Positions 3,436-37,507 of a DNA stretch of 64,000 bases are shown in pieces (within the stretch, counting starts at the first letter, position 1; each line of letters opens with the position of its first letter). The notes beneath the pieces are model-generated. The model worked only from the letters and a program-made list of their open reading frames with translations, did not search any database and had not been told where the DNA came from. A program made the translations under genes and the position numbers. This stretch comes from Candidatus Gottesmanbacteria bacterium (GTDB lineage Bacteria; Patescibacteriota; Microgenomatia; UBA10105; UBA927): positions 1,925 through 65,924 of the forward strand of contig JAUXTO010000017.1 in assembly GCA_030679255.1 (NCBI GenBank), read 5' to 3'.

Positions 3436-4479
3436 TCAAGATGCTTTTGGGAGTATCTCGGGACGGTCTTCTTCCGAACGATCCCCAATCACGCGCGTTT
3501 GCACGAGCTTTTGACCAAGAAGGTTAAATGATGACGACACGCTGCTCATGCTGTTATGGGCGTTGGTGATGTGACGGCCGAGGACTCCAAGGTTTTCCTC
3601 GACTTTCCCATAATCTTTTTGGATTGCGCGAAGGAGTTGGAATACCTGCTTGGATTTCTGTTCGAGATCCTTTCCCTGAAAACTTAGCAGCAATACCTGC
3701 AGATGCGCGTACAGCGTATTCGGAGATACGGGATAGACGCGGAGTTTCCGGGCGTATCCCATGAGTTCCTCCATATTGGCTATCTCGTAGTAGACGGATT
3801 CGGAAGGGATGTACATGAGCGCAAAATCCATGGTACCCTCCTCCGGCAAAATATATTTTTTAGATATATCCCCCACATGTTTTTTAACGTCCGCCATAAA
3901 CTCGCGCTTCGCACGGGATCGGATATCTTCCGTTTCCCCTTTATGCATGAGGGAAAAATTTTCCATGGGAAACTTGGAATCAATGCAGAGGAGCCCGGCG
4001 TCAGTCTTAAGCACCGCATCCACTTTCATACCGGATTTGAATGAGTACTGGAGGTGAAATGAATTTTTGGGGAAGGTCTGTCCAATCATATCGGTGAGCA
4101 CCTGTTCGCCGATATTGCCGCGGAGTTTCGGCGACTGGAGGAATTCCTGAAGGCTCCGAATACCACGGCCGACCTCACTCATTTCCCCTAAATTCTTCTT
4201 GAGGTCTCCAATGACTCGAGCGGCAGTATCAAGCCGTTCATTGAGCTGTTTTCCGTTTTCCTGAAGCAATCGAGAGACATCCCCGGTTTGTCCCCGCATC
4301 GCCTCGTTAAGCGTTTTGTTCGTATGCTCAACGGAGGCCTGCATGCTCTTGAGCCATTCCGTCATCGTCGTATCTTCTTTTTTGCTTCCTAGCTTGTCTA
4401 ACCCGCCTCTTACTAACCATCCAAGGACAATAAATCCCATCACAATCACAATAATGAGGATAAGAAAATCCGGTTGCAT
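3436..4479 (-). CDS. rmuC: DNA recombination protein RmuC
   Basis: N-terminal TM, coiled-coil region and conserved C-terminal RmuC-like block (MYIPSESVYYEI...YPVSPNTLYAHL). Confidence 0.75.
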   Translation of the reverse strand: MQPDFLILIIVIVMGFIVLGWLVRGGLDKLGSKKEDTTMTEWLKSMQASVEHTNKTLNEAMRGQTGDVSRLLQENGKQLNERLDTAARVIGDLKKNLGEMSEVGRGIRSLQEFLQSPKLRGNIGEQVLTDMIGQTFPKNSFHLQYSFKSGMKVDAVLKTDAGLLCIDSKFPMENFSLMHKGETEDIRSRAKREFMADVKKHVGDISKKYILPEEGTMDFALMYIPSESVYYEIANMEELMGYARKLRVYPVSPNTLYAHLQVLLLSFQGKDLEQKSKQVFQLLRAIQKDYGKVEENLGVLGRHITNAHNSMSSVSSSFNLLGQKLVQTRVIGDRSEEDRPEILPKAS

Positions 4480-4847: not shown

Positions 4848-6308
4848 ATGACAAAAAAATTCTATCTCCACAGCGCGATACCGTATGTAAACGCGGCTCC
4901 GCACATCGGACACGCACAGGAGTTTGTCTACTCAGACGTTATCAGACGATATCACACGCTTCTTGGTGAAGACGTCCTATATCTTTGCGGAGCTGATGAA
5001 AATGGGCTAAAGATTATTCAAGCCGCTCAAAAGGCTGGCGTTGAACCACATAAATTCTGCGATATTCATCAGCAAGAATTTCTTGACGTAGCCAAAAAAC
5101 TCAGTGTTCACTTTGATATCTGGCAGCGCGGGACAAATAAAAATCATTTTTTATCTTCACAAAAACTGTGGGAGCTCTGCGTAAAAAACGGAGATATTTA
5201 TAAAAAATCTTATGAGGGACTCTACTGCGTGGGTTGTGAGGCTTTTTATACATCCGATGAACTCAGTAAAAACGGAGAATGCTTTGAACATCCCGGCAAA
5301 AAACTTGATCGGGTTGCAGAAGAAAATTATTTTTTTCGGTTGTCAAAATATCAAAAATTTTTCGAGGAGTTAATCTTTACTGACACTCTCACGATTATTC
5401 CTCAAAGCAGAAAAAATGAGATGGTAGCCTTAATAAAAAAAGGCTTAGAAGATTTTTCTATTTCGCGCACTAAAGAACGGGCCAAAGGATGGGGAGTGCC
5501 TGTCCCGGGAGATACTGATCAAATTATGTATGTTTGGTTTGACGCAAACAACATCTATTACAGTGGAATTGGTTTAGGCTGGAATGATGAACTTTTTGCC
5601 AAGTGGGCACCGGCCGACCTTATGGTCATAGGCAAAGGAATCTTACGCTTTCATGCAATTTACTGGCCTGCGGTCCTCAAATCCGCAGGACTCCCTTTAC
5701 CTAAACAGCTCTTTGCCCATGGGTATCTCACGGTCGATGGACAAAAAATGAGTAAAACGGTTGGCAACGTAGTAGATCCCATAAAAGTTATTGAACAATA
5801 TGGAACGGACGCAGTCCGGTATTATCTCGCCCGCGAAATACCAAGCTATAGCGATGGGGATTATTCCGACCGGCGATTTAAGGAACTCTACAATGCCGAC
5901 TTGGCAAATGGGTTAGGCAATTTAGTAGCACGGGTGGGAAAAATGGCGGAAGGAAAAAGCTTTCAGCTTTCAGCTACTCGCCTCGCTCAAGCTCCGGCGA
6001 AGCGGGTCAGCTTTCAGCAAGTAAACAGTGGAGACTATAAAAAGGCGCTTGAGCAATATCGGTTTAATGATGCGTTGGCGTATGTATGGGAAAAAGTGAA
6101 AGCCGCGGATAAACATATCGATGAACATGAGCCATGGAAATTGAAGGGCGACGCGCTCCATGACGTTCTTGAAACATCCATCAACCAAATTATAGAAATC
6201 GCGACCCTCCTCCAACCGTTTCTCCCGGATACCGCAGAAAAAGTCTTGAACCAGTTTTCTACACAACCAATACAGCCGCAGCCATCCCTGTTCCCCCGCA
6301 TTACATAA
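4848..6308 (+). CDS. metG: methionyl-tRNA synthetase (short form)
   Basis: PHIGHA (HIGH) motif, KMSKT (KMSKS), CxxC zinc knuckle CVGCEAF. Confidence 0.9.
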   Translation: MTKKFYLHSAIPYVNAAPHIGHAQEFVYSDVIRRYHTLLGEDVLYLCGADENGLKIIQAAQKAGVEPHKFCDIHQQEFLDVAKKLSVHFDIWQRGTNKNHFLSSQKLWELCVKNGDIYKKSYEGLYCVGCEAFYTSDELSKNGECFEHPGKKLDRVAEENYFFRLSKYQKFFEELIFTDTLTIIPQSRKNEMVALIKKGLEDFSISRTKERAKGWGVPVPGDTDQIMYVWFDANNIYYSGIGLGWNDELFAKWAPADLMVIGKGILRFHAIYWPAVLKSAGLPLPKQLFAHGYLTVDGQKMSKTVGNVVDPIKVIEQYGTDAVRYYLAREIPSYSDGDYSDRRFKELYNADLANGLGNLVARVGKMAEGKSFQLSATRLAQAPAKRVSFQQVNSGDYKKALEQYRFNDALAYVWEKVKAADKHIDEHEPWKLKGDALHDVLETSINQIIEIATLLQPFLPDTAEKVLNQFSTQPIQPQPSLFPRIT

Positions 6309-7969: not shown

Positions 7970-9451
7970 ATGCGCCAACTCTTTACACGGTATCCCAATA
8001 AAACACGCCGGTTCCTCGAGATTATCGTGCCGGGCACGAGCTGGCTTCTCATTACCATGCCCCTCTGGCTCTCGTTCTCCCATCCGGCGATGGTTGCCTA
8101 CCTCATCATCACATTCGACGTCTACTGGTTATATAAATCCTTTACGCTTGCCATCCACGCAATCAAGTCGTTTCTTACTCTCCAGGCCCATGTCAAAGTC
8201 GATTGGCGCGCGCAGGCCCAAATCACTCCGGGGTTCTCCGGCCTCCATCACGCCATCATCATACCGCAATACAGTGAGCCTATTCATATCCTCCGCCGGA
8301 CTCTTGAAAATTTATTGAAACAAGACTATCCACACGACCGGCTCGTTATTGTGCTTGCCACCGAAGATAAAGATCCTAACGCAAGGGAGACCGGCACCCT
8401 TCTGAAAGAAGAATTTGAGAATAAATTCGGCCATTTCCTCGTCACGCGTCATATCCTCCATCACGGTGAAGTCGCCGGAAAATCAAGTAATATGGCCTGG
8501 GCCGCCAAACGGTTAGTCCGCCAGCTGGCGGATTGGCATATACCCGTCGACCGGATCACCGTCACGTCCTGCGACGCGGACGCACTGCCGCACCCCAAAT
8601 ATTTCTCGGCTCTTACGTGCCAATTTCTTGACGATCCGGATCGGGAGTTCCATTTTTATCAAGGTGCAATTCTTTTTTATTCCAATATCTGGCGGATCCC
8701 GCTCCCTACCCGGGTCATTAACACGTTGGGAAGTATTTGGAATTTGGCGCTCCTGTCCCAACAAAGCAGATTTATCAATTTTTCTACCTACTCCCTATCT
8801 CTGGCGACGGCAGTCCGCGTCGGGTACTGGGATGTGGACGTCATCCCGGAAGATTATCATTTATTTTTTAAAGTGTACTTTGCCTTAGGAGAAAAAGTCG
8901 CCACCCGCGGGATATTTTTGCCTGTCCTGGTTGACGCAGCCGAGAGCCGGACATTTATCGGTACGCTCATCAATCAGTATGAACAATCCAAACGCTGGGC
9001 GTGGGGCGTCTCGGACATCCCCTATGTCATCCGGGGTGTATTTCTCAACAATCACATAGCCCTTCATGACCGGCTGCGACGGCTCCTCTTCCTCCTCGAG
9101 CATCACATTTTCTGGCCCTCCAATTGGTTTATCCTGACGTTGGGAAGCGCTATCCCTCCCATCCTCAATCCCGCGTTCGGCAGGACGGTGTTGGGCCACA
9201 ATCTCGCGCAGATTTCCTCCGGCATTCTCACGCTATCAGCGGTCTTTCTGCTGGTCGTTATTGTAATTGACCTGCGGGTAAAACCCCCGCGACCAAAGGA
9301 GTTTGCTGCCTGGAAACTACCGTTTCTCTATCTCCAATGGCTCACGCTTCCGATCGTTTCATTTTTTCTCGCAGCGCTCCCGGGCCTCGATGCGCACACA
9401 AGACTTATGCTTGGAAAACGTCTGGAATATCGGGTGACAGAAAAGGTATAA
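7970..9451 (+). CDS. membrane-embedded glycosyltransferase family 2 (cellulose-synthase-like architecture)
   Basis: 493 aa, N-terminal TMs, central GT2-like region (TSCDADALP, QxxRW-like QSKRWAWG), C-terminal TMs. Confidence 0.5.
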   Translation: MRQLFTRYPNKTRRFLEIIVPGTSWLLITMPLWLSFSHPAMVAYLIITFDVYWLYKSFTLAIHAIKSFLTLQAHVKVDWRAQAQITPGFSGLHHAIIIPQYSEPIHILRRTLENLLKQDYPHDRLVIVLATEDKDPNARETGTLLKEEFENKFGHFLVTRHILHHGEVAGKSSNMAWAAKRLVRQLADWHIPVDRITVTSCDADALPHPKYFSALTCQFLDDPDREFHFYQGAILFYSNIWRIPLPTRVINTLGSIWNLALLSQQSRFINFSTYSLSLATAVRVGYWDVDVIPEDYHLFFKVYFALGEKVATRGIFLPVLVDAAESRTFIGTLINQYEQSKRWAWGVSDIPYVIRGVFLNNHIALHDRLRRLLFLLEHHIFWPSNWFILTLGSAIPPILNPAFGRTVLGHNLAQISSGILTLSAVFLLVVIVIDLRVKPPRPKEFAAWKLPFLYLQWLTLPIVSFFLAALPGLDAHTRLMLGKRLEYRVTEKV

Positions 9452-28619: not shown

Positions 28620-29807
28620 ATGAATATCCTCGCAATCGAAACATCGTTCGATGAAACGGCTTGTGCGATTATTGAGGATGGAACGAAAATCATCAGTAAT
28701 GTTCTGGCAACGAGTCACGAAATGCATGATAAATACGGCGGGGTCGTGCCCGAAATCGCCGCACGCAGGCAACTCGAGTGCATCATCCCCGTGATCTCAG
28801 AATCTCTCCAACCCCTCGCCACTAGCAATTCTACACTTCTCCATAGAAGTGGAGAATTATTTCCTGATTGGATAAGAAAAACGATTAAAGAATCAATTGA
28901 TGCTATTGCCGTCACAGTCGGACCGGGACTCATTGGATCGCTTTTGGTCGGCGTGGAAACCGCCAAGACCATCGCATTCGTCACTGACAAGCCGATCATC
29001 CCCGTCAACCATGTACTTGCCCATATGTATGCGAATTTTCTCGATTCCAATCGTGAAAATTCGTCCCGAGCGCAGTCGAGGAAAACACTTATTGAATTCC
29101 CCTCCATCTCCCTCGTCGTATCCGGCGGACACACAGAACTTTATTTGATGAAGTCAGCCAAAGACCTGACGTGGATAGGAGGGACGCTGGATGATGCAGC
29201 AGGAGAATGTTTTGACAAAACTGCCCGTCTGTTGGGTTTCGGCCACGGCGGTGGAGTGGCAATAGAAGCTGCTGCTTCAAAATATCAAATAGCAAATAGC
29301 AAAAATCAAATAAAATTGCCTAGACCAATGATGGATGATAAAACGCTCAATTTTTCCTTCAGCGGACTGAAAACCGCGGTCATGAGGGAATGGAAAAAGT
29401 GTCATCCCGGACTTGATCCGGGATCCAGTTCAAAAAAAGATTCCGGCTCGGAGGCCGGAATGACAAGCGCCTTCGCCCACGAAATACAGGAAGCCATTAC
29501 CGATGTTCTTGTCAAAAAAACAATTCGCGCGGCAAAACAATATGAGGCAAAATCCATTCTCCTCTCCGGCGGTGTGGCAGCCAACACACGTCTCCGAGAA
29601 AAGTTTCTCTCTACACTTTCCACTTTACACTCTCCACTTTTTTTCGCGCCTCCCCCGTCTCTCTGCACCGATAACGCCGTCATGATCGCCGCGTGCGCCT
29701 ACTTCAATGGTGAATCCACAAATTGGCGCAACATTACTGCTGCGCCTGATTTGTCCGTTGAGCTTTTCAATTCTTCGCTCACAGATCAACTCCCAGATTC
29801 CTCTTGA
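28620..29807 (+). CDS. tsaD: tRNA N6-adenosine threonylcarbamoyltransferase TsaD (Kae1/Gcp family) with several in-frame insertions
   Basis: MNILAIETSFDETACAI, VSGGHTELY, DDAAGECFDKTARLLG, SGGVAANTRLR, CTDNAVMIA; extra segments relative to canonical TsaD are encoded by hairpin repeats. Confidence 0.85.
   Translation: MNILAIETSFDETACAIIEDGTKIISNVLATSHEMHDKYGGVVPEIAARRQLECIIPVISESLQPLATSNSTLLHRSGELFPDWIRKTIKESIDAIAVTVGPGLIGSLLVGVETAKTIAFVTDKPIIPVNHVLAHMYANFLDSNRENSSRAQSRKTLIEFPSISLVVSGGHTELYLMKSAKDLTWIGGTLDDAAGECFDKTARLLGFGHGGGVAIEAAASKYQIANSKNQIKLPRPMMDDKTLNFSFSGLKTAVMREWKKCHPGLDPGSSSKKDSGSEAGMTSAFAHEIQEAITDVLVKKTIRAAKQYEAKSILLSGGVAANTRLREKFLSTLSTLHSPLFFAPPPSLCTDNAVMIAACAYFNGESTNWRNITAAPDLSVELFNSSLTDQLPDSS
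29402..29465. repeat. about 64 bp two-hairpin repeat element (copy B), in-frame inside tsaD, encoding PGLDPGSSSKKDSGSEAGMT
   Basis: tcatcccggacttgatccgggatccagttcaaaaaaagattccggctcggaggccggaatgac; both stems keep pairing relative to copy A through compensatory changes. Confidence 0.8.
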
Positions 29808-30182
29808 TAAACAACAGACGCTCTCTTTGATCCGCTACTAGAATATATAAACAAAACCTCATCTTCACCAAAAAGATCAACAAAATCAAAAACTGCTTCA
29901 GCTTGCATGATACAGTCTAATGTTTTTGGTTCTGCGTCATAACGTCCATTTAATAGAGGCACCACCACAGAATCTCTACTACCGTCGTTCTCAACACCAC
30001 GCATAAAAATAGTAATCGATTCGGCCCCTACATTGACTGGAACGTTAACGCTATCGAATCCAACATCTTGTTTTCCCTTTTTTAGTACTGCTGAATCTTT
30101 AAATTTTAACCACTCTGGAACATCAGCCTTGTCATGAGCTTTTGGATTTCTCTGTTCATAGTCTACTCTAAAAACTGCCATC
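29786..30182 (-). CDS. hypothetical acidic protein
   Basis: start chosen at MAVFRVDYEQ with GGAGG RBS; no recognisable motif. Confidence 0.4.
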
Positions 30183-30221
30183 TCAAACACCTCCTCCGGG
30201 CAGATAGATAATCTGGAAGGT

Positions 30222-30231
30222 ACTCTCTCTC
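30222..30231. repeat. (CT)5 dinucleotide tract in bidirectional promoter region
   Basis: ctctctctct, read directly. Confidence 0.9.
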
Positions 30232-30258
30232 TGGGCAAAAGTCAAGAAAATGGGGTAT

Positions 30259-30330
30259 CCAGGTAGTAGAAACTCGACTGCATCCCAAAGTGATGCACGA
30301 TCTATCACTTGTCGAGTTTTCACTACCTGG
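30259..30330. mobile_element. 72 bp MITE-like element with 20 bp terminal inverted repeats, flanked by TAT
   Basis: ccaggtagtagaaactcgac...gtcgagttttcactacctgg; an identical copy sits at 33182-33253; absent from the otherwise homologous leader at 31290-31330. Confidence 0.65.
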
Positions 30331-30344
30331 TATACTTGGGATAT

Positions 30345-30668
30345 ATGGCTCACCCACCGAAGTCACTGCAAGGGACACTCTGGTCAAGCGATGTCAATCA
30401 ACTTGATCTCGACAAACACAGGGCCTACATCATCCACCAAATCCTCACGTTTGGCACCATGGATGAGCTCAAGTGGTTATTTGGGACCTACCCGAAACGG
30501 GAAATTGTCGATACATTTGTCCATCAACCAATGAAAATGTACCCAAATCATATCTATTGGTTCACAAAAAACCACCTCCTTTCTCTCCAACATACCCAGC
30601 TTGACGAACAAAACTATGTCACATCTCTTTTTGGACCAACTCGACCCCGAGCGGCAGCGGGTGTTTGA
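30345..30668 (+). CDS. small partner protein of AbiEii-like NTase (putative antitoxin/regulator), module 1
   Basis: MAHPPKSLQG...LDLDKHRAYIIHQIL...; paralogous to 31331 and 33268; 3' end overlaps the downstream NTase gene by about 53 nt. Confidence 0.6.
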   Translation: MAHPPKSLQGTLWSSDVNQLDLDKHRAYIIHQILTFGTMDELKWLFGTYPKREIVDTFVHQPMKMYPNHIYWFTKNHLLSLQHTQLDEQNYVTSLFGPTRPRAAAGV

Positions 30669-31263
30669 TAAACTCGCCGCGTTTGCCGATACCTTCGTCC
30701 TGGCCGGAGGCACTGCCATCATGCTTCAGATTGGTCATCGGAAGTCATTTGACTTCGATTGTTTTTCTCTCGACTCGCCTCCCAAAACAATTCTTCCCAA
30801 AGTGAAGCGCGTATTCGGCACGAACGTCTATCCAACGATCCAAACCCGAGACTTTCTCACCGTCTATACGCCGGAGCATGTTGAACTAACTTTTGCAAAA
30901 CACCCTTTTAAACCACTACGGCCTATCATGCAAACATCGTCCATCCCGCTCTTTCATATGGATGATCTCGTTGCAAACAAAGCCTATACCATCGGCAGGC
31001 GTCCGGCGTGGAGGGACTACGTCGATCTATTTTTTGTTCTGAAATGGAATCTCTATACGCTGGAAAATGTGATACAACTCGCAGAAAGAAAATTTTCAGG
31101 AGAATTCAACGCAAAGCTTCTCCTCCCTCAACTTACCTATTTTGAAGATATAAAACCCGCAGAAACTACATTTTTGAAAGAATCCTACAACGATGAGGAG
31201 ATCAAGGCGTTTCTCAACGATCAGGTGGACACCTACCTGGCAACCATCTTGCCACAAAAATAA
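30616..31263 (+). CDS. nucleotidyltransferase, AbiEii/AbiGii toxin-like (DUF1814-type), module 1
   Basis: FVLAGGTAIMLQIGHRKSFDFDCF matches the AbiEii N-terminal GGTAL...R.S.D.D motif; about 215 aa. Confidence 0.65.
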   Translation: MSHLFLDQLDPERQRVFDKLAAFADTFVLAGGTAIMLQIGHRKSFDFDCFSLDSPPKTILPKVKRVFGTNVYPTIQTRDFLTVYTPEHVELTFAKHPFKPLRPIMQTSSIPLFHMDDLVANKAYTIGRRPAWRDYVDLFFVLKWNLYTLENVIQLAERKFSGEFNAKLLLPQLTYFEDIKPAETTFLKESYNDEEIKAFLNDQVDTYLATILPQK

Positions 31264-31330
31264 CTTGTAGGATATTCAGGGACCGTCCCTAAATTACAAA
31301 AGTCAAGAAAATGGGGTATACTTCCTCTAT

Positions 31331-31630
31331 ATGGCTCATCCGCCGAAGTCGCTCCAAGCAGTACTGAAATCTGCAGCAATAGAAGACCTTGATTTGGAAA
31401 AAAATAAAGCCTATATCGTACACCAAATACTGGCATTCGGCTCGTGGGAACAAATGGTATGGTTACTCAATTATTACGGAGCCAATATGGTGCGGGAAGT
31501 CTTTCAAAAACAACCGATGAAACTCTATTCTCCGCAGGCCTTTCACTTTTCTCAACTTATTCTCAATACCCCTGATGCGCTAACACACAAAAATCATTAT
31601 GACCAAACTCTTTCTCGAGATCTTGGATGA
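31331..31630 (+). CDS. small partner protein, module 2
   Basis: MAHPPKSLQAVLKSAAIEDLDLEKNKAYIVHQILAFGS... Confidence 0.6.
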   Translation: MAHPPKSLQAVLKSAAIEDLDLEKNKAYIVHQILAFGSWEQMVWLLNYYGANMVREVFQKQPMKLYSPQAFHFSQLILNTPDALTHKNHYDQTLSRDLG

Positions 31631-32243
31631 CGCGCGGATATCTGTTCTAAAAAAATTAAGCGCATGCGCAAAAGACGCAGTACTTGCCGGTGGCACTTCT
31701 CTTGCTCTCCAGATAGGACACAGAAGATCCTTTGATTTTGATCTTTTTATCCCACGACCCATTCCGCGTACGCTCTACAAATCCATCCAAGAACTGTTCC
31801 ATGAATCACCCATGAAACATGTCGACACAGGAGACCAACTCACCGTAGAACTATCCTCCGGGATAGAAATCACATTTCTCTATTACTGGTACGCACCGCT
31901 TTATCCACCAATTCCCATGGCTGCACTTCCGCTTTGCGACAAGAGCGATATAGCCACAGACAAAGCAATGACCATCGGGAGACGCAATGCATGGCGCGAT
32001 TATGTAGATTTCTTTTTTCTTTTGAAAGACCGGCATGTCACACTCGCACAAATCATCACTGATGCCGAAAAACGCTTCGGAAATGAATTTTCGAAAAAAC
32101 TCTTTTTACAACAACTCTCCTACACTGGAGACATAAAAGATTTTTCTATTACCTATATCGGTGGCATTCATACACCACAGGAAATTACAGAATTTTTGGA
32201 ACGGCAAGCAAAAAATTACGCAACATCATCATTGCCGCTGTAG
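31599..32243 (+). CDS. nucleotidyltransferase, AbiEii-like, module 2
   Basis: AVLAGGTSLALQIGHRRSFDFDLF. Confidence 0.65.
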   Translation: MTKLFLEILDDARISVLKKLSACAKDAVLAGGTSLALQIGHRRSFDFDLFIPRPIPRTLYKSIQELFHESPMKHVDTGDQLTVELSSGIEITFLYYWYAPLYPPIPMAALPLCDKSDIATDKAMTIGRRNAWRDYVDFFFLLKDRHVTLAQIITDAEKRFGNEFSKKLFLQQLSYTGDIKDFSITYIGGIHTPQEITEFLERQAKNYATSSLPL

Positions 32244-32272
32244 CCGCCTCCTTCTTCATATCTGACTATCAC

Positions 32273-32734
32273 TTAAGAAGATTTTTTTATGACAAAGGCA
32301 TCGGTCAGAAGCCGCGACTGCCAATCGTACGCTTGGGCGACGTGTTCGGGGTTGCCTAATTTGACGAGCTCCTGGCTGATGAGTCGCGCCAAGTGATATC
32401 CTCCCAACGCTTCGCGATCAGCAGTTTGGACAAACAACGGGTGATCACGGTTGATAAAAATGATGCCTCCCTCCACAAAGCTCTAGCATGCCAAATTCAT
32501 GCCACCGATTTTGACGACACTCGCATCAGCGTCGTAGGCGTTGGCGACCAACTCCCGCACGAGATCCAGGCTCTCCGCACAGAGCCGGGTGCCGATAGTC
32601 GTCAGATGCGACTTATCAAGGGTAATGGGGATGGTAGACTGCTGCGCGGGGCTATTATATACCAAATATTCTGACAACGCCGTCATGATCGGAGCTGCTG
32701 CCTTTTTTAAAGGTATATCCACAGATTGGCCCAC
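32273..32734 (-). pseudogene. GHKL-ATPase N-terminal remnant with in-frame TAG (copy 1)
   Basis: LVRELVANAYDADASVVKIGGMNLAC-TAG-SFVEGGIIFINRDHP: Bergerat N-box (ELVxNAxDA) followed by a degenerate G1 box; truncated at both ends; its 5' part is antisense to the tsaD-3' duplicate. Confidence 0.5.
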
Positions 32735-32771
32735 AATTACTGCTACTCCTGATCTGGTTGTAGAAATATAG
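32665..32771 (+). repeat. duplicated tsaD 3'-end fragment (att-like scar)
   Basis: encodes DNAVMIGAAAFFKGISTDWPTITATPDLVVEI, close at both nt and aa level to the tsaD C-terminus DNAVMIAACAYFNGESTNWRNITAAPDLSVEL at 29680-29780. Confidence 0.7.
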
Positions 32772-32782
32772 ATATAAAATTT

Positions 32783-33091
32783 TTATTCTTTGGGAACGGA
32801 AGCCACGCTAACGCGAGGAAGAATACCTTTTTTATGATCTGCTATCTGCTCTACCGATGGGTTAAATACAACATATGATACCGGTCTTCCAGTTGTCAAA
32901 TCGATGACAGATCCACTAATCACGGGACTCCCGTCCGATAAATTTTCAGCGAAATTTGTTAGTGCGGCACCAAGACTTCCTGTGTCGAACAGCGTATTCA
33001 TCCCATCATGTTTTGCCTTTTCAACTCGCGCCTCTAAAACAATTTTCTCGAACGCATCTTCAACTCGTTCTAAGTCTCCTAGATTTGACAT
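32783..33091 (-). CDS. hypothetical protein
   Basis: 102 aa ORF divergent from module 3; no motif. Confidence 0.35.
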   Translation of the reverse strand: MSNLGDLERVEDAFEKIVLEARVEKAKHDGMNTLFDTGSLGAALTNFAENLSDGSPVISGSVIDLTTGRPVSYVVFNPSVEQIADHKKGILPRVSVASVPKE

Positions 33092-33143
33092 ATAAAACTC
33101 CTCCCTTTTTCTACTTGGTAATCTTAATTAATTTAAAATCCTA

Positions 33144-33155
33144 CTCTCTCTCTCT
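33144..33155. repeat. (CT)6 dinucleotide tract
   Basis: ctctctctctct. Confidence 0.9.
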
Positions 33156-33181
33156 GGAAAAATGTCAAGGAAGTGGGGTAT

Positions 33182-33253
33182 CCAGGTAGTAGAAACTCGA
33201 CTGCATCCCAAAGTGATGCACGATCTATCACTTGTCGAGTTTTCACTACCTGG
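33182..33253. mobile_element. 72 bp MITE-like element, second identical copy
   Basis: identical to 30259-30330; the surrounding roughly 113 nt is identical between copies although the downstream CDSs are only about 40-50% identical. Confidence 0.65.
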
Positions 33254-33267
33254 TATACTTGGGATAT

Positions 33268-33573
33268 ATGGCTCACCCACCGAAAGATCTCCAAGGGGCC
33301 CTCTGGTCAGCAGAGGTCAACACAATGGATTTGGAGAAAGATAAAAATTACATCATCCATCAGGTCTTTTCACACGGATCACTGGAGGATATGTTCTGGG
33401 TCTTGCGAACCTATCCCCGAGATAGCATCCGGCACGTCTTCGCCACAGTACCGTATAAAGACTACCGCGCACCACGGTTTTACTTCATAAAAAACTTCCT
33501 TCTTAATCTGCGAGATACTCCCATGAACGAACATCGTTATGTCAAAAATATTCCTCGAGATATTAGATCCTGA
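33268..33573 (+). CDS. small partner protein, module 3
   Basis: MAHPPKDLQGALWSAEVNTMDLEKDKNYIIHQVF... Confidence 0.6.
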   Translation: MAHPPKDLQGALWSAEVNTMDLEKDKNYIIHQVFSHGSLEDMFWVLRTYPRDSIRHVFATVPYKDYRAPRFYFIKNFLLNLRDTPMNEHRYVKNIPRDIRS

Positions 33574-34189
33574 ACGACAAAAAGTGTTTAGACAGCTCGC
33601 CGAGTTCCGTGGCGACGGGTATCTTGCCGGCGGCACCGCCCTTGCGCTACAACTTGGTCACCGCGTGTCGATTGATTTTGATGTATTCACCTATAAAGAG
33701 GTAAGTACGCGCCTCCGATCTGCCATTGCAAAACATTTTTCCATACAACAGGTTCATCTCAACACATCCGATCAATACACCTTCACGACCCATGGGAATA
33801 TCGAAGTGACCTTCGTATGGTTTGACTACCCGCTCATCCGTCCACTTATACCAACGCCATCTATCTCACTGGCTACAATAGTAGATATCGCAGCAAATAA
33901 AGCAAACACGCTCGGACTTCGCGCGGTGTGGCGGGACTATGTAGATCTTTTCTGGCTTTTGCGCGAAGAGGGCATGGTACTCCAAGATATTATTGCCTGG
34001 GCAAAACAAAAATACCCTACACAGTTCGTCGAAGCGCAATTTTTGGAACAGCTCTGCTACTTTGCTGATCTTACCGTAACGCCAATACAATTTTTCAAAA
34101 AACGCTATAGCACTAACGATATCCAATCATTCCTTCAAAAAGGAGTTGGTGCCTACCTGGACACAAGGAGAAAACAAGAGCTGCGATAA
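33539..34189 (+). CDS. nucleotidyltransferase, AbiEii-like, module 3
   Basis: YLAGGTALALQLGHRVSIDFDVF. Confidence 0.7.
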   Translation: MSKIFLEILDPERQKVFRQLAEFRGDGYLAGGTALALQLGHRVSIDFDVFTYKEVSTRLRSAIAKHFSIQQVHLNTSDQYTFTTHGNIEVTFVWFDYPLIRPLIPTPSISLATIVDIAANKANTLGLRAVWRDYVDLFWLLREEGMVLQDIIAWAKQKYPTQFVEAQFLEQLCYFADLTVTPIQFFKKRYSTNDIQSFLQKGVGAYLDTRRKQELR

Positions 34190-34279
34190 TCTCACCGGAC
34201 AACGCCGCCGCCTACTTCCTTGCATCTCGCATCTGGCCATCACAAAACTATGCACGTGCATAATATTGTGATCTTCTGA

Positions 34280-34675
34280 TTATGAAGAAGATTTCTTTAT
34301 GACAAAAGCATCGGTCAGAAGCCGCGACTGCCAATCGTACGCCTGAGCAATCTCTCCGGAACGGGCAAGTTTGACGAGCTCCTGGGTGATGAGTCGCGCC
34401 AAGTGATACCCTCCCAACCCTTCGCGGTCAGCAGTTTGGACAAACAACGGGTGATCACGGTTGATAAAAATGATGCCTCCCTCCACAAAGCTCTAGCATG
34501 CCAGATTCATGCCACCGGTTTTGACGACACTCGCATCAGCATCGTAGGCGTTGGCGACGAGCTCTCGCACGAGATCCAGGCTCTCCGCATAGAGCCGGGT
34601 GCCAATAGTAGTCAAGTGTGATTTATCAAACGTAATAGGGATCGTGGATTGCTGCACGGGACTATTATATACCAA
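34280..34675 (-). pseudogene. GHKL-ATPase N-terminal remnant with the same in-frame TAG (copy 2)
   Basis: about 90% nt identity to copy 1; LVRELVANAYDADASVVKTGGMNLAC-TAG-SFVEGGIIFINRDHP. Confidence 0.5.
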
Positions 34676-34808
34676 ACGCTCCTACAATTCCCCCAGCGAA
34701 AAAATCATGCCAATTTCCCTCCGGTCGGGAGTAAAATAGCATGATTTATTTTATGCCACCAATTCCGTCATGATCAGCGCCGCCGGACCGTCCCGAAATT
34801 CACTCTCA

Positions 34809-35141
34809 TTATTCCACCGAAACTACTGATATTGATCCATGTCCGTTCACATTACTCAATGTCACAGAAGGAACGCCATTATCAGGAAAAACCGTCACGC
34901 TTTTCAAGGATTCTGTATGTAATATACTCTCAAGGGTTTCCTGGGATACACGGTTCAAATCCAAACGAACTTTATCATCAGGAACATATTGAAAGGTAAC
35001 AACTAATACTTCATCATTTTCATTCGCCTCAATTATGCACTTCGCTTCACCATATGCTAGGTATTGTCTTTCTCCTGGCACCAATATTCCATGAAGAATT
35101 TCTTTGCCATCTTCTCCAATTTCAATCTTTTGAATTGCCAT
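34809..35141 (-). CDS. hypothetical acidic protein
   Basis: 110 aa ORF divergent from valS; shares an upstream region with 29786-30182 but not its sequence. Confidence 0.35.
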   Translation of the reverse strand: MAIQKIEIGEDGKEILHGILVPGERQYLAYGEAKCIIEANENDEVLVVTFQYVPDDKVRLDLNRVSQETLESILHTESLKSVTVFPDNGVPSVTLSNVNGHGSISVVSVE

Positions 35142-35183
35142 ATCATTTCACCTCCTCCAGGCAGATAGATAACTGGGAAGGTA

Positions 35184-35199
35184 CTCTCTCTCTCTCTCT
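35184..35199. repeat. (CT)8 dinucleotide tract
   Basis: ctctctctctctctct. Confidence 0.9.
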
Positions 35200-35233
35200 G
35201 CAAAAGTCAAGAAAAACAGTTACAATATGGAAC

Positions 35234-37507
35234 ATGGACAAAGCGTATAATCCGCAAGCAGTTGAGGAAGCCATATATAAGATGTGGGAAACCGGGGGAT
35301 ATTTTACCCCGAAATTAATTCCTAAAGAAGCCCTGCCTGCCGGCAGGCAGCCATTTTCCATCCTTCTCCCTCCACCCAACGCTAACGCTGACCTGCACGT
35401 CGGGCATGCGATGTATGTGGTCGAGGACATTATGATCCGCTATCACCGCATGAAGGGCGACCCCACGCTCTGGATGCCCGGGGCCGACCACGCAGGATTT
35501 GAGACGCAGTATGTGTATGAAAAACATTTGGCTAAACAGGGAAAGAGCCGGTTTGATTTTGACCGGGAGACACTGTATAAAGATATCTGGAACTTTGTCC
35601 ACACAAACCGCGGCTCGATGGAAAACCAACTCCGAAGGTTAGGGTTTTCGCTCGATTGGAGTCGAAACGTTTTTACCCTGGATCCTAGCATAGTTGAAAC
35701 GGTATACAAATCTTTTAAGCAGCTTTTTGACGAAGGACTTGTGTACCGCGATAAACGTCTGGTCAATTACTGCACCAAAGACGGTACCGGATTTTCGGAC
35801 CTCGAAGTCCTTTACGTCGAGCGCAATGACCCTCTCTACTATATTAAGTACGGCCCCTTCACTATCGCCACCGCCCGGCCGGAAACGAAATTCCGCGACA
35901 CGGCTCTCGCTGTCAACCCCAAAGACAAGCGCTATAAAAAGTACATCGGACAAACATTAGAAATTATGGGGCTCCTGGGTCCCATCACGATGACGGTCAT
36001 CCCTGATCCGCACGTCGATCCCAAATTTGGTACCGGCATCATGAAAGTGACACCGGCCCATGACCCGCATGATTTTGAGCTTGGACGGCAATTTAATCTG
36101 CCCGTCACTCCCATCATCGATTTCCGCGGAAAGATGGACTTTTCGTGGTTTCTCTCCCAAAAAGACATTGATCCTAAATATAGGGCACGGGCAGAAAATT
36201 ACCATGGTAAAAAAGTGGCCATCGTCCGGCCGCTCATGGTTGAAGATCTCAAAGCTGATGGACTGATGATAAAAATCGATGAAGCCTACACCCATCGGAT
36301 CGGTACCTGCTGGAAATGCGGAACCGTCATCGAGCCGCTTCCCCTGGAACAGTGGTATGTGAAAGTTGCCCCGATGACAAAAAAGGCAATCGAGGCGATC
36401 AATAAAAAACAAGTGACGTTTGTTCCGAAGCGGTTTGAAAAAACAGCCAAACAGTGGCTCACGAACTTCCATGACTGGAACATCAGCCGTCAAAATGTAT
36501 GGGGAATCCGGATCCCGGCATGGCACTGCGCACTTTGTGCGCAGAATCCGACCCGCTTCGCCAAAGCGATAGCGAGGCGAGCAAATACTACCAATAAGTC
36601 AAACGCTCAATCAATAAGACTCTCCGGATGGGTTGTGACGGATGGGGAAAAGCCAGAAACGTGTCCGACGTGCGGGGGCCGCGATCTCACCCAGGACACG
36701 GATACATTTGATACATGGTTTAGCTCGGGACAATGGCCCTTCGCAACGCTTCGCGCAACAAGAGACTTTGACTATTTCTATCCGACGACGGTCATGGAAA
36801 CGGGATATGACATCCTCCCCTGGTGGGTATGCCGGATGCTTATGCTCGGCATTCATTTAACCGGCAGCGTGCCGTTCACCACCGTCTATCTTCATGGACT
36901 CGTCCGGGATGCACAAGGTCAAAAAATGAGTAAGAGCAAAGGCAATGTCATCAATCCTCTCAAAATGGTTGATCAATACGGTGCCGATGCGCTCCGGATG
37001 GCGCTCGTGTTTGGCACGGGAGCGGGAAACGATCAGGCGCTCTCGGAAGACAAAATCCGTGGGATGCGGAATTTTGCCAATAAATTGTGGAACATTGGAC
37101 GGTTCATTGAAATGAACCTTCAAATCTCAAATCCCTATGACCAAATCACAATATACGATGAAAACATGCATAAAATGCTCAAAAATCCCAATGATAAACG
37201 GATCATTTCCCAAACGAATATGCTTGTTGCCGGAGTCACGAAGGATCTTGATCGATACCGATTCTCCGATGCTGCTCAGAAAATCTATAACTTTACCTGG
37301 CATACGCTCGCCGATGTGCATTTGGAAAAAAATAAAGAACGGTTTAAAGAAGGTGATGGTCAGGCAATAGCGGTTCTTCGACACGTCTTCCTCACGATCA
37401 TGAAACTTCTCCACCCGTTCATGCCTTTTGTGACGGAAGAAATCTGGAGCAAACTACCGAGAAAAACGACTGATCCTCTCATCATCTCCCCTTGGCCCGG
37501 GAATTGA
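35234..37507 (+). CDS. valS: valyl-tRNA synthetase (compact, no C-terminal coiled coil)
   Basis: PPPNANADLHVGHA (HIGH), KMSKSKGN (KMSKS), editing (CP1) and anticodon-binding regions. Confidence 0.9.
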   Translation: MDKAYNPQAVEEAIYKMWETGGYFTPKLIPKEALPAGRQPFSILLPPPNANADLHVGHAMYVVEDIMIRYHRMKGDPTLWMPGADHAGFETQYVYEKHLAKQGKSRFDFDRETLYKDIWNFVHTNRGSMENQLRRLGFSLDWSRNVFTLDPSIVETVYKSFKQLFDEGLVYRDKRLVNYCTKDGTGFSDLEVLYVERNDPLYYIKYGPFTIATARPETKFRDTALAVNPKDKRYKKYIGQTLEIMGLLGPITMTVIPDPHVDPKFGTGIMKVTPAHDPHDFELGRQFNLPVTPIIDFRGKMDFSWFLSQKDIDPKYRARAENYHGKKVAIVRPLMVEDLKADGLMIKIDEAYTHRIGTCWKCGTVIEPLPLEQWYVKVAPMTKKAIEAINKKQVTFVPKRFEKTAKQWLTNFHDWNISRQNVWGIRIPAWHCALCAQNPTRFAKAIARRANTTNKSNAQSIRLSGWVVTDGEKPETCPTCGGRDLTQDTDTFDTWFSSGQWPFATLRATRDFDYFYPTTVMETGYDILPWWVCRMLMLGIHLTGSVPFTTVYLHGLVRDAQGQKMSKSKGNVINPLKMVDQYGADALRMALVFGTGAGNDQALSEDKIRGMRNFANKLWNIGRFIEMNLQISNPYDQITIYDENMHKMLKNPNDKRIISQTNMLVAGVTKDLDRYRFSDAAQKIYNFTWHTLADVHLEKNKERFKEGDGQAIAVLRHVFLTIMKLLHPFMPFVTEEIWSKLPRKTTDPLIISPWPGN

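What the first reader, a model, noticed from the sequence alone, without database searches (positions are those of the whole stretch)
30183..30250. Conserved bidirectional promoter cassette carrying a (CT)n tract of 5, 6 and 8 units in three copies
Seen: a shared motif set sits between a minus-strand small gene and a plus-strand gene in three places.
- The shared motif is ...CACCTCCTCC(R)GGCAGATAGATAA(Y)TGGGAAGGTA(CT)nG/GGCAAAAGTCAAGAAAA...
- At 30183-30250 it separates the 29786-30182 ORF from module 1.
- At 33100-33170 (partially conserved) it separates the 32783-33091 ORF from module 3.
- At 35145-35233 it separates the 34809-35141 ORF from valS.

The CT tract is 5, 6 and 8 units respectively. 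AAAGTCAAGAAAA lies 10-25 nt upstream of the ATG (leaderless-like) and also precedes module 2 at 31299.

A dinucleotide microsatellite placed between divergent promoters is the classical architecture for slipped-strand phase variation of both flanking genes. Here it would gate putative toxin modules, and one copy sits in front of valS.
Basis: partly seen in the sequence, partly recalled or inferred. Interest (0 to 1): 0.6.

Follow-up and report, generated by a model that had tools for sequence, protein, structure and literature searches.

The report
Repeat-tuned promoter of orphan small genes
Three copies of a conserved two-way promoter in a Gottesmanbacteria (Patescibacteria) genome carry a CT repeat that sets the -35/-10 spacing of the promoter for a small orphan gene, and the repeat length changes in related natural populations, so this is a candidate on/off switch in a group where none is described.

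Summary
(CT)5, (CT)6 and (CT)8 sit at 30223-30232, 33144-33155 and 35184-35199. They are the only dinucleotide repeats of 5 or more units in the 64 kb, and each lies in a homologous divergent intergenic region.

Fifteen copies from seven related Patescibacteria populations define the conserved core. On the minus strand it reads TTGAC(T/A), then 5 or 7 fixed nt, then (AG)n, then TAnnnT, a ~25-40 nt leader, GGAGG and ATG. That is the promoter, leader and ribosome site of the minus-strand small gene, whatever gene lies on the plus side.

The repeat fills the -35/-10 spacer. Spacer lengths are 17, 19 and 21 bp in the window, and 15 (1 copy), 17 (6), 19 (6), 21 (1) and 25/27 (1) overall.

Independent assemblies of the same populations differ almost only at the tract: n=10 vs 11, and n=4 vs 6. 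The tract is therefore hypermutable.

The plus-strand genes (three DUF6922/AbiEii modules and valS) have their own -10 boxes and leaderless starts. Repeat length does not change their spacing, so gating of toxins or valS is not supported.

All of this lies in a tsaD-valS island built of units that each begin with a tsaD 3' remnant. Switching itself is inferred, not shown.

The parts
30183..30250 (.). Copy 1 of the divergent promoter region, between small ORF-A and the module 1 side
   Evidence: Homologous to copy 3 and to copies in L012, L021, L023, L025 and L043.
30240..30245 (-). Predicted -35 box TTGACT of the ORF-A promoter
   Evidence: TTGAC is invariant in 15/15 copies whatever the plus-strand gene is. 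Coordinates checked.
30223..30239 (-). 17-bp spacer: TTTGCCC plus (AG)5. The (CT)5 tract is 30223-30232. Predicted optimal (ON) spacing.
30217..30222 (-). Predicted -10 box TACCTT (TAnnnT), directly after the tract
   Evidence: TAnnnT follows the tract directly in 14/15 copies.
29786..30197 (-). Shine-Dalgarno GGAGGAGGTG (30188-30197) and small ORF-A (ATG at 30181, 131 aa). An orphan protein whose 3' end overlaps the tsaD stop by 22 nt.
   Evidence: no Pfam; only itself among 5.8 billion proteins; annotated frame scores best but low; AF2 pLDDT 35.
33092..33172 (.). Copy 2 of the promoter region. Minus strand: -35 TTGACA 33163-33168; 19-bp spacer 33144-33162 including (CT)6 33144-33155; -10 TAGGAT 33138-33143; SD GGGAGGAG 33098-33105. 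The leader has diverged and is AT-rich.
32783..33091 (-). Small ORF-B (102 aa), an orphan
35142..35233 (.). Copy 3 of the promoter region. Minus strand: -35 TTGACT 35205-35210; 21-bp spacer 35184-35204 including (CT)8 35184-35199; -10 TACCTT 35178-35183; SD 35149-35158. Plus strand: weak -35 CTGCAA 35198-35203, 17-nt spacer, -10 TACAAT 35221-35226, then 7 nt to the valS ATG at 35234 (leaderless).
   Evidence: The same sequence with n=8 is in Logan contig L001.
34809..35141 (-). Small ORF-C (110 aa), an orphan
   Evidence: (only spurious hits to beta-repeat proteins)
35234..37507 (+). valS (valyl-tRNA synthetase). The ancestral right flank of the island.
   Evidence: frame check; tsaD directly followed by valS in L027/L029
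30345..31263 (+). Module 1: DUF6922 (30345-30668) plus AbiEii nucleotidyltransferase (30616-31263). Its own predicted promoter is TTGTCG 30309-30314, 16 nt, TATACT 30331-30336, with a leaderless start.
31294..32243 (+). Module 2: promoter TTACAA-17-TATACT (31294-31322) containing AAAGTCAAGAAAA but no CT tract and no minus-strand ORF; DUF6922 31331-31630; AbiEii 31599-32243.
   Evidence: (family D6)
33268..34189 (+). Module 3: DUF6922 (33268-33573) plus AbiEii (33539-34189). Promoter TTGTCG 33232-33237, 16 nt, TATACT 33254-33259.
30252..30338 (.). ~85-nt palindromic insertion between the old promoter remnant and the DUF6922 -10 box. A second identical copy lies at 33175-33261.
   Evidence: -40.8 kcal/mol, z -5.4; arms at 30260-30278/30311-30329 and 33183-33201/33234-33252; absent from the other loci
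32670..32771 (+). Remnant of the tsaD 3' end that opens island unit 2. A shorter remnant at 34755-34783 opens unit 3.
   Evidence: families D5, D9; tblastn 64% over 33 aa. The same pattern is seen in L012 and L021.
32276..32644 (-). HATPase_c_3 pseudogene (residues 1-46 fused to 409-498). A second copy with the same internal deletion lies at 34286-34657.
   Evidence: family D1; full-length 498-aa gene in L023

Best explanation
**What it is.** The three sites are paralogous copies of a compact divergent promoter region.

**Conserved core.** The core is a complete minus-strand expression signal for a small, unrelated orphan gene. Reading the minus strand: a sigma-70-type -35 box TTGAC(T/A), a spacer of 5 or 7 fixed bases plus (AG)n, a -10 box TAnnnT, a ~25-40-nt leader, a strong Shine-Dalgarno (GGAGGAGGTG in copies 1 and 3) and ATG.

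**How it should work.**
- The dinucleotide tract is the variable part of the spacer, so each gain or loss of a unit by slipped-strand mispairing changes the -35/-10 distance by 2 bp.
- The window's copies give 17 bp (copy 1, predicted ON), 19 bp (copy 2, predicted weak) and 21 bp (copy 3, predicted OFF).
- The tract would therefore act as a heritable, reversible tuner or switch (a contingency locus) for the small minus-strand gene.

**Plus-strand genes.** The three DUF6922/AbiEii modules and valS are read from their own -10 boxes (TATACT, TACAAT) as leaderless mRNAs. The tract does not alter their -35/-10 spacing. At most, overlap of the two -35 regions lets a strong minus promoter compete with the plus promoter.

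**Why there are three copies.** The tsaD-valS gap is an island built of serial units: tsaD 3' remnant, minus-strand orphan ORF, this promoter, then plus-strand cargo.

**Shown:** the anatomy, its conservation, and the hypermutability of the tract in natural populations. **Inferred:** the promoter assignment, the ON/OFF effect, reversibility and any adaptive value.
For: 1. Fifteen copies with an intact small ORF, from seven populations, keep TTGAC in 15/15. TAnnnT follows (AG)n directly in 14/15. In the 15th, an interrupted tract (AG)4GGAG still gives exactly 17 bp.
2. Conservation to the right of the tract ends at AAAAGTCAA (the -35 box) when the plus-strand gene is RHH/PIN or AbrB/PIN. Those genes have their own separate TTGACA-17-TAnnnT promoters further on. 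The shared core therefore serves the minus-strand gene.
3. Spacer lengths fall in 2-bp steps around the optimum: 15 (1 copy), 17 (6), 19 (6), 21 (1) and 25/27 (1).
4. A related lineage without the repeat has TTGACT-17-TACGAT in front of its small ORF after tsaD.
5. Hypermutability, case 1: four separately assembled Hainich H41 replicates read n=10, 11, 10, 11. Only one SNP and one 1-nt indel differ elsewhere in 7.1 kb.
6. Hypermutability, case 2: three GCA_0409603xx/0409601xx assemblies read n=6 vs 4, 4 at one copy, with one other SNP in 4.3 kb.
7. The tracts are the only dinucleotide repeats of 5 or more units in 64 kb.
8. The architecture matches the H. influenzae hifA/hifB (TA)9-11 promoter-spacer switch described in PMC2651432.
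Against: - No transcript, TSS or read-level data were available. The promoter assignment rests on sequence alone, and the -10 box matches only 3 of 6 consensus positions. The generic promoter scan did not report it.
- Only 6 of 15 copies have the optimal 17 bp.
- The two polymorphisms seen are in a copy predicted OFF at either length (25 vs 27 bp) and in a decayed copy without a small ORF. ON/OFF toggling of a working copy was not observed.
- Five tracts of n=5-7 were invariant across three assemblies each.
- Tracts of 5-8 units are at the short end for contingency loci.
- The H41 assemblies have only 4-7x coverage, so a consensus error at (CT)10 cannot be fully excluded.
- The gated genes are orphans with low coding scores and no detectable homologues or fold. 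Their functionality is unproven.
Confidence: 0.55

Rival explanations
1. Neutral microsatellite. The region is a real promoter inherited with each island unit. The CT tract is a mutable but functionally unimportant stretch whose length drifts because the orphan small genes are dispensable or decaying. There is no adaptive switching.
For: - The polymorphisms observed lie in a copy already far from optimal spacing (25/27 bp) and in a decayed copy with no ORF.
- 9 of 15 copies are off the optimum.
- The small ORFs are singletons with low coding scores.
- An empty tsaD-valS site still carries (CT)3 with no minus-strand gene.
Against: - Spacer lengths cluster tightly at 17 and 19 (12 of 15). Values run from 15 to 27 rather than wandering freely.
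- The perfect repeat is retained in 14 of 15 copies across genomes whose tsaD proteins are only 63-71% identical to the window's.
- The strong SD, ATG and intact ORFs are kept in all 15 copies.
Confidence: 0.28
2. Recombination joint. The (CT)n tract mainly marks, or helps form, the junction at which island modules are shuffled: the left part is the orphan ORF plus leader, the right part is the -35 box plus cargo. Its length variation is a by-product of recombination, not a switch.
For: - Homology between copy 1 and copy 2 begins exactly at the tract (family D2, 30223-30493 vs 33146-33416), while their leaders differ.
- Copy 1 combines a left side like copy 3 with a right side like copy 2.
- The L023 copy at 10691 has the left side of window copy 1 and the right side of window copy 2.
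- The whole locus is a mosaic of duplicated units with tsaD remnants of variable extent.
Against: - The n=10/11 and n=4/6 differences occur between otherwise near-identical sequences, with no sign of exchange of flanking DNA. That is the signature of slippage.
- No recombinase gene is present in the island.
Confidence: 0.1
3. One microsatellite between two divergent promoters phase-varies both flanking genes, including the AbiEii toxin modules and valS.
For: - The divergent arrangement and the overlapping -35 regions (minus -35 at 35205-35210 inside the plus spacer 35204-35220) would allow mutual interference.
- The hifA/hifB precedent controls both genes (PMC2651432).
Against: - The tract is upstream of the plus-strand -35, and adding CT units regenerates the same CTGCAA hexamer.
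- In copies 1 and 2 the DUF6922 -10 box is about 100 nt from the tract, behind a hairpin insertion that supplies its own -35.
- Module 2 has the same promoter without any tract.
- valS is essential, yet it sits behind n=4 (interrupted), 8, 10 and 11 in different populations.
Confidence: 0.07
4. Structural or protein-binding element. The homopurine-homopyrimidine tract acts through H-DNA or triplex formation, or as a binding site for an unknown factor, rather than through spacer length.
For: (CT)n.(AG)n mirror repeats can form triplexes (general knowledge). The tract is always the same CT motif.
Against: Tracts of 10-16 bp are short for H-DNA. Nothing in the data calls for this beyond the spacer model. 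Rfam gave no match, so an RNA role is also unsupported.
Confidence: 0.04

Closest known systems
Haemophilus influenzae hifA/hifB fimbrial promoter with a (TA)9-11 tract (van Ham et al. 1993, as summarised in PMC2651432)
   Same: - A dinucleotide repeat lies in a short region between divergently transcribed genes.
- Unit changes alter the -35/-10 spacing in 2-bp steps.
- Interrupted, stabilised variants exist: (TA)4ATTA there, (AG)4GGAG here.
   Different: - Here the repeat is CT/AG.
- It is predicted to lie in the spacer of only one of the two promoters.
- It occurs in up to three copies per genome.
- It controls unrelated cytoplasmic-looking orphan ORFs, not fimbriae.
- The host is an uncultured groundwater Patescibacterium.
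- No expression data exist.
Mycoplasma gallisepticum vlhA promoters with (GAA)n (PMC6258824)
   Same: Many copies per genome of a promoter with highly conserved flanks around a variable simple repeat. Repeat number differs between orthologues and strains. The genome is reduced.
   Different: - The GAA repeat lies about 40 nt upstream of the TSS, outside the spacer, and only n=12 is active.
- The controlled genes form one lipoprotein family.
- Here the genes are mutually unrelated and the repeat is inside the spacer.
   Same: A simple repeat between -35 and -10 sets promoter strength according to its length.
   Different: Those are mononucleotide tracts with 1-bp steps, controlling surface antigens of pathogens.
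Genomic islands integrated at the 3' end of a conserved gene, leaving direct repeats of the gene end
   Same: Each island unit begins with a remnant of the tsaD 3' end. The units carry TA modules. An empty tsaD-valS site exists in a relative.
   Different: No integrase or recombinase lies in or beside the island. The remnant boundaries vary between units, arguing against a fixed att core.

Membership tests
SSR-mediated transcriptional phase variation, promoter-spacer class | A perfect simple-sequence repeat lies between the -35 and -10 boxes of a promoter | tested here: met
   Sequence-level prediction only. TTGAC(T/A), 5 or 7 nt, (AG)n, TAnnnT in 15 copies from 7 populations. No TSS data.
SSR-mediated transcriptional phase variation, promoter-spacer class | Repeat number differs between closely related strains or populations while the flanks stay identical | tested here: met
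   n=10/11/10/11 in four H41 assemblies. n=6/4/4 in L024/L025/L026. Invariant at five shorter tracts. Not testable for the window's own tracts; L001 also has n=8.
SSR-mediated transcriptional phase variation, promoter-spacer class | Repeat number determines transcription (ON/OFF or graded) | not testable with these tools
   Needs reporter fusions, in vitro transcription or metatranscriptomes.
SSR-mediated transcriptional phase variation, promoter-spacer class | High-frequency, reversible switching within a clonal lineage | not testable with these tools
   Needs read pileups or cultures. Only assembly consensus sequences could be compared.
hifA/hifB-type bidirectional switch | The same repeat lies in the overlapping promoters of both divergent genes and controls both | tested here: not met
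   The tract is upstream of the plus-strand -35, so plus-strand spacing does not depend on n. In copies 1 and 2 the plus promoter is about 80 nt away.
Type IV toxin-antitoxin AbiE-like modules (the plus-strand cargo) | An AbiEii nucleotidyltransferase toxin gene preceded by a small partner gene | tested here: met
   PF08843 AbiEii (E 2e-9 to 1.5e-11) preceded by PF21956 DUF6922, three times. The partner is DUF6922, not the canonical AbiEi. Toxicity was not tested.
Integron gene-cassette array | An IntI integrase with attI, and attC inverted-repeat sites flanking each cassette | tested here: not met
   All ORFs between tsaD and valS are accounted for and none is an integrase. The repeat search found no attC-like inverted repeats between units.
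Site-specific integrative island at a gene 3' end | Direct repeats of the target gene's 3' end at the unit borders, with a fixed crossover core and a recombinase | tested here: inconclusive
   tsaD 3' remnants are present at each unit border in the window, L012 and L021. Their starting points differ, and no recombinase was found.

The most novel reading that the evidence does not exclude
The conserved promoter-leader-SD block, together with the tsaD 3' end, forms a recombinational 'expression slot'. Unrelated orphan genes are swapped into it precisely at the ATG, and each slot carries its own slippage-driven switch. The result would be an integrase-free cassette-capture and bet-hedging system at the tsaD-valS hotspot of Gottesmanbacteria-like Patescibacteria. 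An empty slot survives in L023 (start codon fused to the GGACCTTCCCTAAATTT element) and in front of window module 2.
Probability: 0.12. Interest if true: 0.8.

Novelty: new member of a known kind. Interest (0 to 1): 0.55.

Why it matters
- Simple-repeat contingency loci are known almost only from host-adapted pathogens. Full-text searches found no report of promoter-repeat phase variation in Patescibacteria/CPR. The nearest report is a hypervariable coding repeat in a Gracilibacterium (PMC6851277).
- If the switch is real, these ultra-small, probably episymbiotic bacteria use stochastic on/off expression of rapidly exchanged orphan genes next to toxin-antitoxin modules. That gives a handle on cell-to-cell heterogeneity in organisms that cannot be cultured.
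- It is directly testable with existing metagenomic reads and simple reporters.
- It also explains why assemblies break in this island, and it corrects the idea that valS or the toxin genes are phase-variable.

Tried and rejected
1. **Translational frameshift switch.**
 - The tract is in frame with an upstream TTG extension of ORF-A (29786-30238) and with an upstream extension of the valS frame (35054-37507).
 - Rejected because the strong SD plus ATG lie downstream of the tract, because valS homologues start at MDKAYN/MEKTY, and because n=10 and n=11 coexist in H41.
2. **Structured RNA.** Rfam found nothing at E<=1 in 29500-35700.
3. **Integron or attC array.** No integrase and no attC-like repeats.
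4. **Function of the small ORFs.**
 - No Pfam hit for 13 of them at relaxed thresholds.
 - They are mutually unrelated except for one pair at 39% identity.
 - ORF-A is a singleton.
 - ORF-C gives only spurious matches to beta-propeller/FG-GAP repeat proteins.
 - The single-sequence AlphaFold model of ORF-A was unusable (pLDDT 35), so no fold search was run.
5. **More polymorphism data for the window's own population.**
 - Exact-protein look-ups of ORF-A and ORF-B found nothing.
 - AbiEii-1 gave a contig that breaks at the hairpin.
 - ORF-C gave one contig with the same n=8.
6. **Wider distribution.**
 - Lineages with tsaD P0059 and P0010 have different neighbours and no CT motif.
 - A viral-contig scan gave one chance hit.
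 - Seven of nine genome hits and one of four metagenome hits to the pattern were chance matches in unrelated organisms.
7. **Alternative -10 box.** The conserved TATCTA in the leader would place the -35 inside (AG)n, which has no -35-like sequence, so it was rejected.

Full report
**1.

(CT)5, (CT)6 and (CT)8 lie at 30223-30232, 33144-33155 and 35184-35199. CT 10-mers occur nowhere else in the window, against 0.11 expected from shuffles. No other dinucleotide repeat in the 64 kb reaches five units.

AAAGTCAAGAAAA occurs exactly three times, all inside this region. Copies 1 and 3 share the left flank (45 nt, 91%) and the right flank (28 nt, 93%). Copy 2 shares only the tract and the right flank.

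**2. Gene content**

| Feature | Coordinates | Strand | Evidence |
|---|---|---|---|
| tsaD | 28620-29807 | + | |
| ORF-A, orphan, 131 aa | 29786-30181 | - | |
| Module 1, DUF6922 + AbiEii | 30345-31263 | + | |
| Module 2, DUF6922 + AbiEii | 31331-32243 | + | |
| HATPase_c_3 pseudogene | 32276-32644 | - | |
| tsaD 3' remnant | 32670-32771 | + | |
| ORF-B, orphan, 102 aa | 32783-33091 | - | |
| Module 3, DUF6922 + AbiEii | 33268-34189 | + | |
| HATPase_c_3 pseudogene, same internal deletion | 34286-34657 | - | |
| Short tsaD remnant | about 34755-34783 | + | |
| ORF-C, orphan, 110 aa | 34809-35141 | - | |
| valS | 35234-37507 | + | |

The organism is annotated as Candidatus Gottesmanbacteria bacterium.

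**3. Relatives**

A pattern scan and exact-protein look-ups retrieved related loci from six other Patescibacteria populations:

| Loci | Source | Layout |
|---|---|---|
| L004/L013/L015-18 | Hainich H41 | tsaD, one minus-strand orphan ORF, CT tract, valS |
| L010/L011/L019-21 | Hainich H43 | Three units with DUF6922/AbiEii, RHH+PIN and AbrB+PIN cargo |
| L012 | JGI metagenome | Two units |
| L023 | GCA_016218205.1 | Full-length HATPase_c_3, MNT/HEPN cargo, two units plus an empty slot |
| L024-26 | Three metagenome assemblies | Two units plus one decayed copy |
| L043 | GCA_040960375.1 | Two units |

A further relative, L027/L029, has tsaD followed directly by valS, which is the empty site.

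In every filled locus each unit consists of a tsaD 3' remnant, a minus-strand small ORF, the CT-containing intergenic region, and a plus-strand cargo. The cargo is usually a toxin-antitoxin pair. The small ORFs are unrelated to one another, apart from one pair at 39% identity, and have no Pfam family.

**4. What the motif is**

I anchored 15 copies on the tract. On the minus strand they read TTGAC(T/A), then 5 or 7 fixed nt, then (AG)n, then TAnnnT, then a ~25-40 nt leader, then GGAGG-type SD, then ATG.

- TTGAC is invariant in 15/15.
- TAnnnT directly follows the tract in 14/15.
- The exception, in front of valS in L023, has (AG)4GGAG before TAGTCT, which again gives 17 bp.

To the right of the tract, conservation stops at AAAAGTCAA when the plus-strand gene is not DUF6922 or valS. 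Those genes carry their own separate TTGACA-17-TAnnnT promoters. The shared core is therefore the promoter, leader and ribosome-binding site of the minus-strand orphan gene, with the repeat forming the variable part of the -35/-10 spacer.

A related lineage that lacks the repeat has TTGACT-17-TACGAT in the equivalent place. This supports both the box assignment and the 17-bp optimum in this group.

**5. Spacer lengths**

The window has 17 bp (copy 1), 19 bp (copy 2) and 21 bp (copy 3). Across all 15 copies:

| Spacer (bp) | Copies |
|---|---|
| 15 | 1 |
| 17 | 6 |
| 19 | 6 |
| 21 | 1 |
| 25/27 | 1 |

The values move in 2-bp steps and centre on the optimum and its neighbour.

**6. The plus strand**

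- Module 2 has TTACAA-17-TATACT followed 8 nt later by ATG.
- valS has CTGCAA-17-TACAAT followed 7 nt later by ATG. Both are leaderless.
- The last CT unit forms part of the weak plus-strand -35, so adding units does not change plus-strand spacing.
- In copies 1 and 2 an ~85-nt palindrome (-40.8 kcal/mol, z -5.4) has been inserted between the old promoter and the DUF6922 -10 box. It supplies a new -35: TTGTCG-16-TATACT with an upstream TG.

The tract therefore cannot directly gate the AbiEii modules or valS. Only promoter competition through the overlapping -35 regions remains possible, and that is inference.

**7. Mutability**

- Four separately assembled Hainich H41 replicates read n=10, 11, 10, 11. 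They are otherwise identical over 7.1 kb except for one SNP and one single-base indel.
- Three assemblies of another population read n=6, 4, 4 at one copy, with a single SNP elsewhere in 4.3 kb.
- By rough reckoning, a variable event falling in such a short tract by chance has a probability of about 0.01 or less in each case.
- Five shorter tracts (n=5-7) did not vary across three assemblies each.

The tract is therefore a mutational hot spot, as slipped-strand mispairing predicts. However, the variants seen are in a copy predicted OFF at both lengths and in a decayed copy. ON/OFF toggling of a working promoter has not been observed. The window's own tracts could only be compared with one other contig, which has the same n=8.

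**8. Interpretation**

The best reading is a promoter-spacer simple-repeat switch or tuner for the orphan small genes (confidence about 0.55). It is closest to the H. influenzae hifA/hifB (TA)n switch (PMC2651432). In its multi-copy conserved-flank organisation it resembles the Mycoplasma gallisepticum vlhA (GAA)n promoters (PMC6258824).

Rivals:
- A neutral microsatellite in a conserved promoter (about 0.28).
- A recombination joint for module shuffling (about 0.1). Homology between copies 1 and 2 begins exactly at the tract, and flank types are mosaic.
- A structural or protein-binding role (about 0.04).

**9. Known or new**

Repeat-driven promoter phase variation is a well-known kind of system. 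I found no report of it for Patescibacteria/CPR in the searchable library. The nearest is a hypervariable coding repeat in a Gracilibacterium (PMC6851277).

I therefore rate this as a new member of a known kind. There is a less likely but more novel possibility: the conserved promoter-leader block plus the tsaD end forms an exchangeable 'expression slot' for orphan genes.

**10. Limits**

- There are no transcript or read-level data.
- The -10 box is a weak consensus match.
- The gated genes are orphans with low coding scores, no homologues and no predictable fold.

Noticed in passing
window 32670-32771 and 34755-34783; also L012 and L021: Each island unit begins with a diverged remnant of the tsaD 3' end (76% DNA identity, or 64% over 33 aa, to the resident gene). 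The tsaD-valS gap therefore looks like a serially filled insertion hotspot. Remnant start points differ between units, and no recombinase is present.
   Followed up: partly
window 30252-30338 and 33175-33261: Two identical ~85-nt near-perfect palindromes (-40.8 kcal/mol, z -5.4). They are inserted between the old promoter remnant (GGTATCC) and the DUF6922 -10 box (GGTATAC) of modules 1 and 3. They are absent from module 2, the rest of the window and all related loci. The right arm supplies a new -35. Possibly a MITE-like insertion or an inverted duplication of the -10 region.
   Followed up: partly
window 31267-31297 and 34785-34800; L015 about 4142-4170, L021 about 5941-5970, L023 about 8357-8386: A conserved ~30-nt element, GTAGGATATTCA(A/G)GGACC(G/T)TCCCTAAAT, containing the palindrome GGACNGTCC. 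It lies between the tsaD stop and the 3' end of the small ORF. In window module 2 it is fused directly to the promoter with no ORF and no CT tract. Its function is unknown; a recombination or protein-binding site is possible.
   Followed up: partly
L023 8370-8460: An 'empty slot'. The promoter, (CT)3, leader, SD and start codon (CAT on the plus strand) are joined directly to the GGACCTTCCCTAAATTT element with no small ORF in between. This suggests that ORFs are gained or lost precisely at the ATG.
   Followed up: no
window 32276-32644 and 34286-34657: Two copies (91% identical) of a HATPase_c_3 pseudogene. Both have the same internal deletion: residues 1-46 fused to 409-498 of the 498-aa intact gene seen in L023. 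The units were therefore duplicated after the deletion.
   Followed up: yes
window 29786-29807: The tsaD reading frame runs 22 nt into the 3' end of the convergent ORF-A, giving tsaD a non-conserved C-terminal tail (…ELFNSSLTDQLPDSS). Relatives end at …SVEI. tsaD lengths vary from 351 to 443 aa among close homologues, probably for the same reason.
   Followed up: partly
L027 4596-4676 (also L028, L029): At the empty tsaD-valS site the 60-nt gap still reads …CTCTCTTCGGGCAAAAATCAAAAAAAACAGGTACAAT-7 nt-ATG. It has a (CT)3 and a degenerate -35 (TTGATT on the minus strand) with no minus-strand gene. This is either the ancestral valS promoter or a scar left by loss of a cassette.
   Followed up: no
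L019 13564-13669 versus L020/L021: Within otherwise identical H43 assemblies, a 105-nt patch of valS carries 17 substitutions and a 9-nt indel. It looks like a short recombination tract from another allele.
   Followed up: no
window 29786-30181, 32783-33091, 34809-35141: The three small ORFs have lower G+C (0.38-0.43) than the window average of 0.47. Their codon-usage scores are below every long gene of the window, although the annotated frame is always the best of six. This fits foreign or very young genes.
   Followed up: partly
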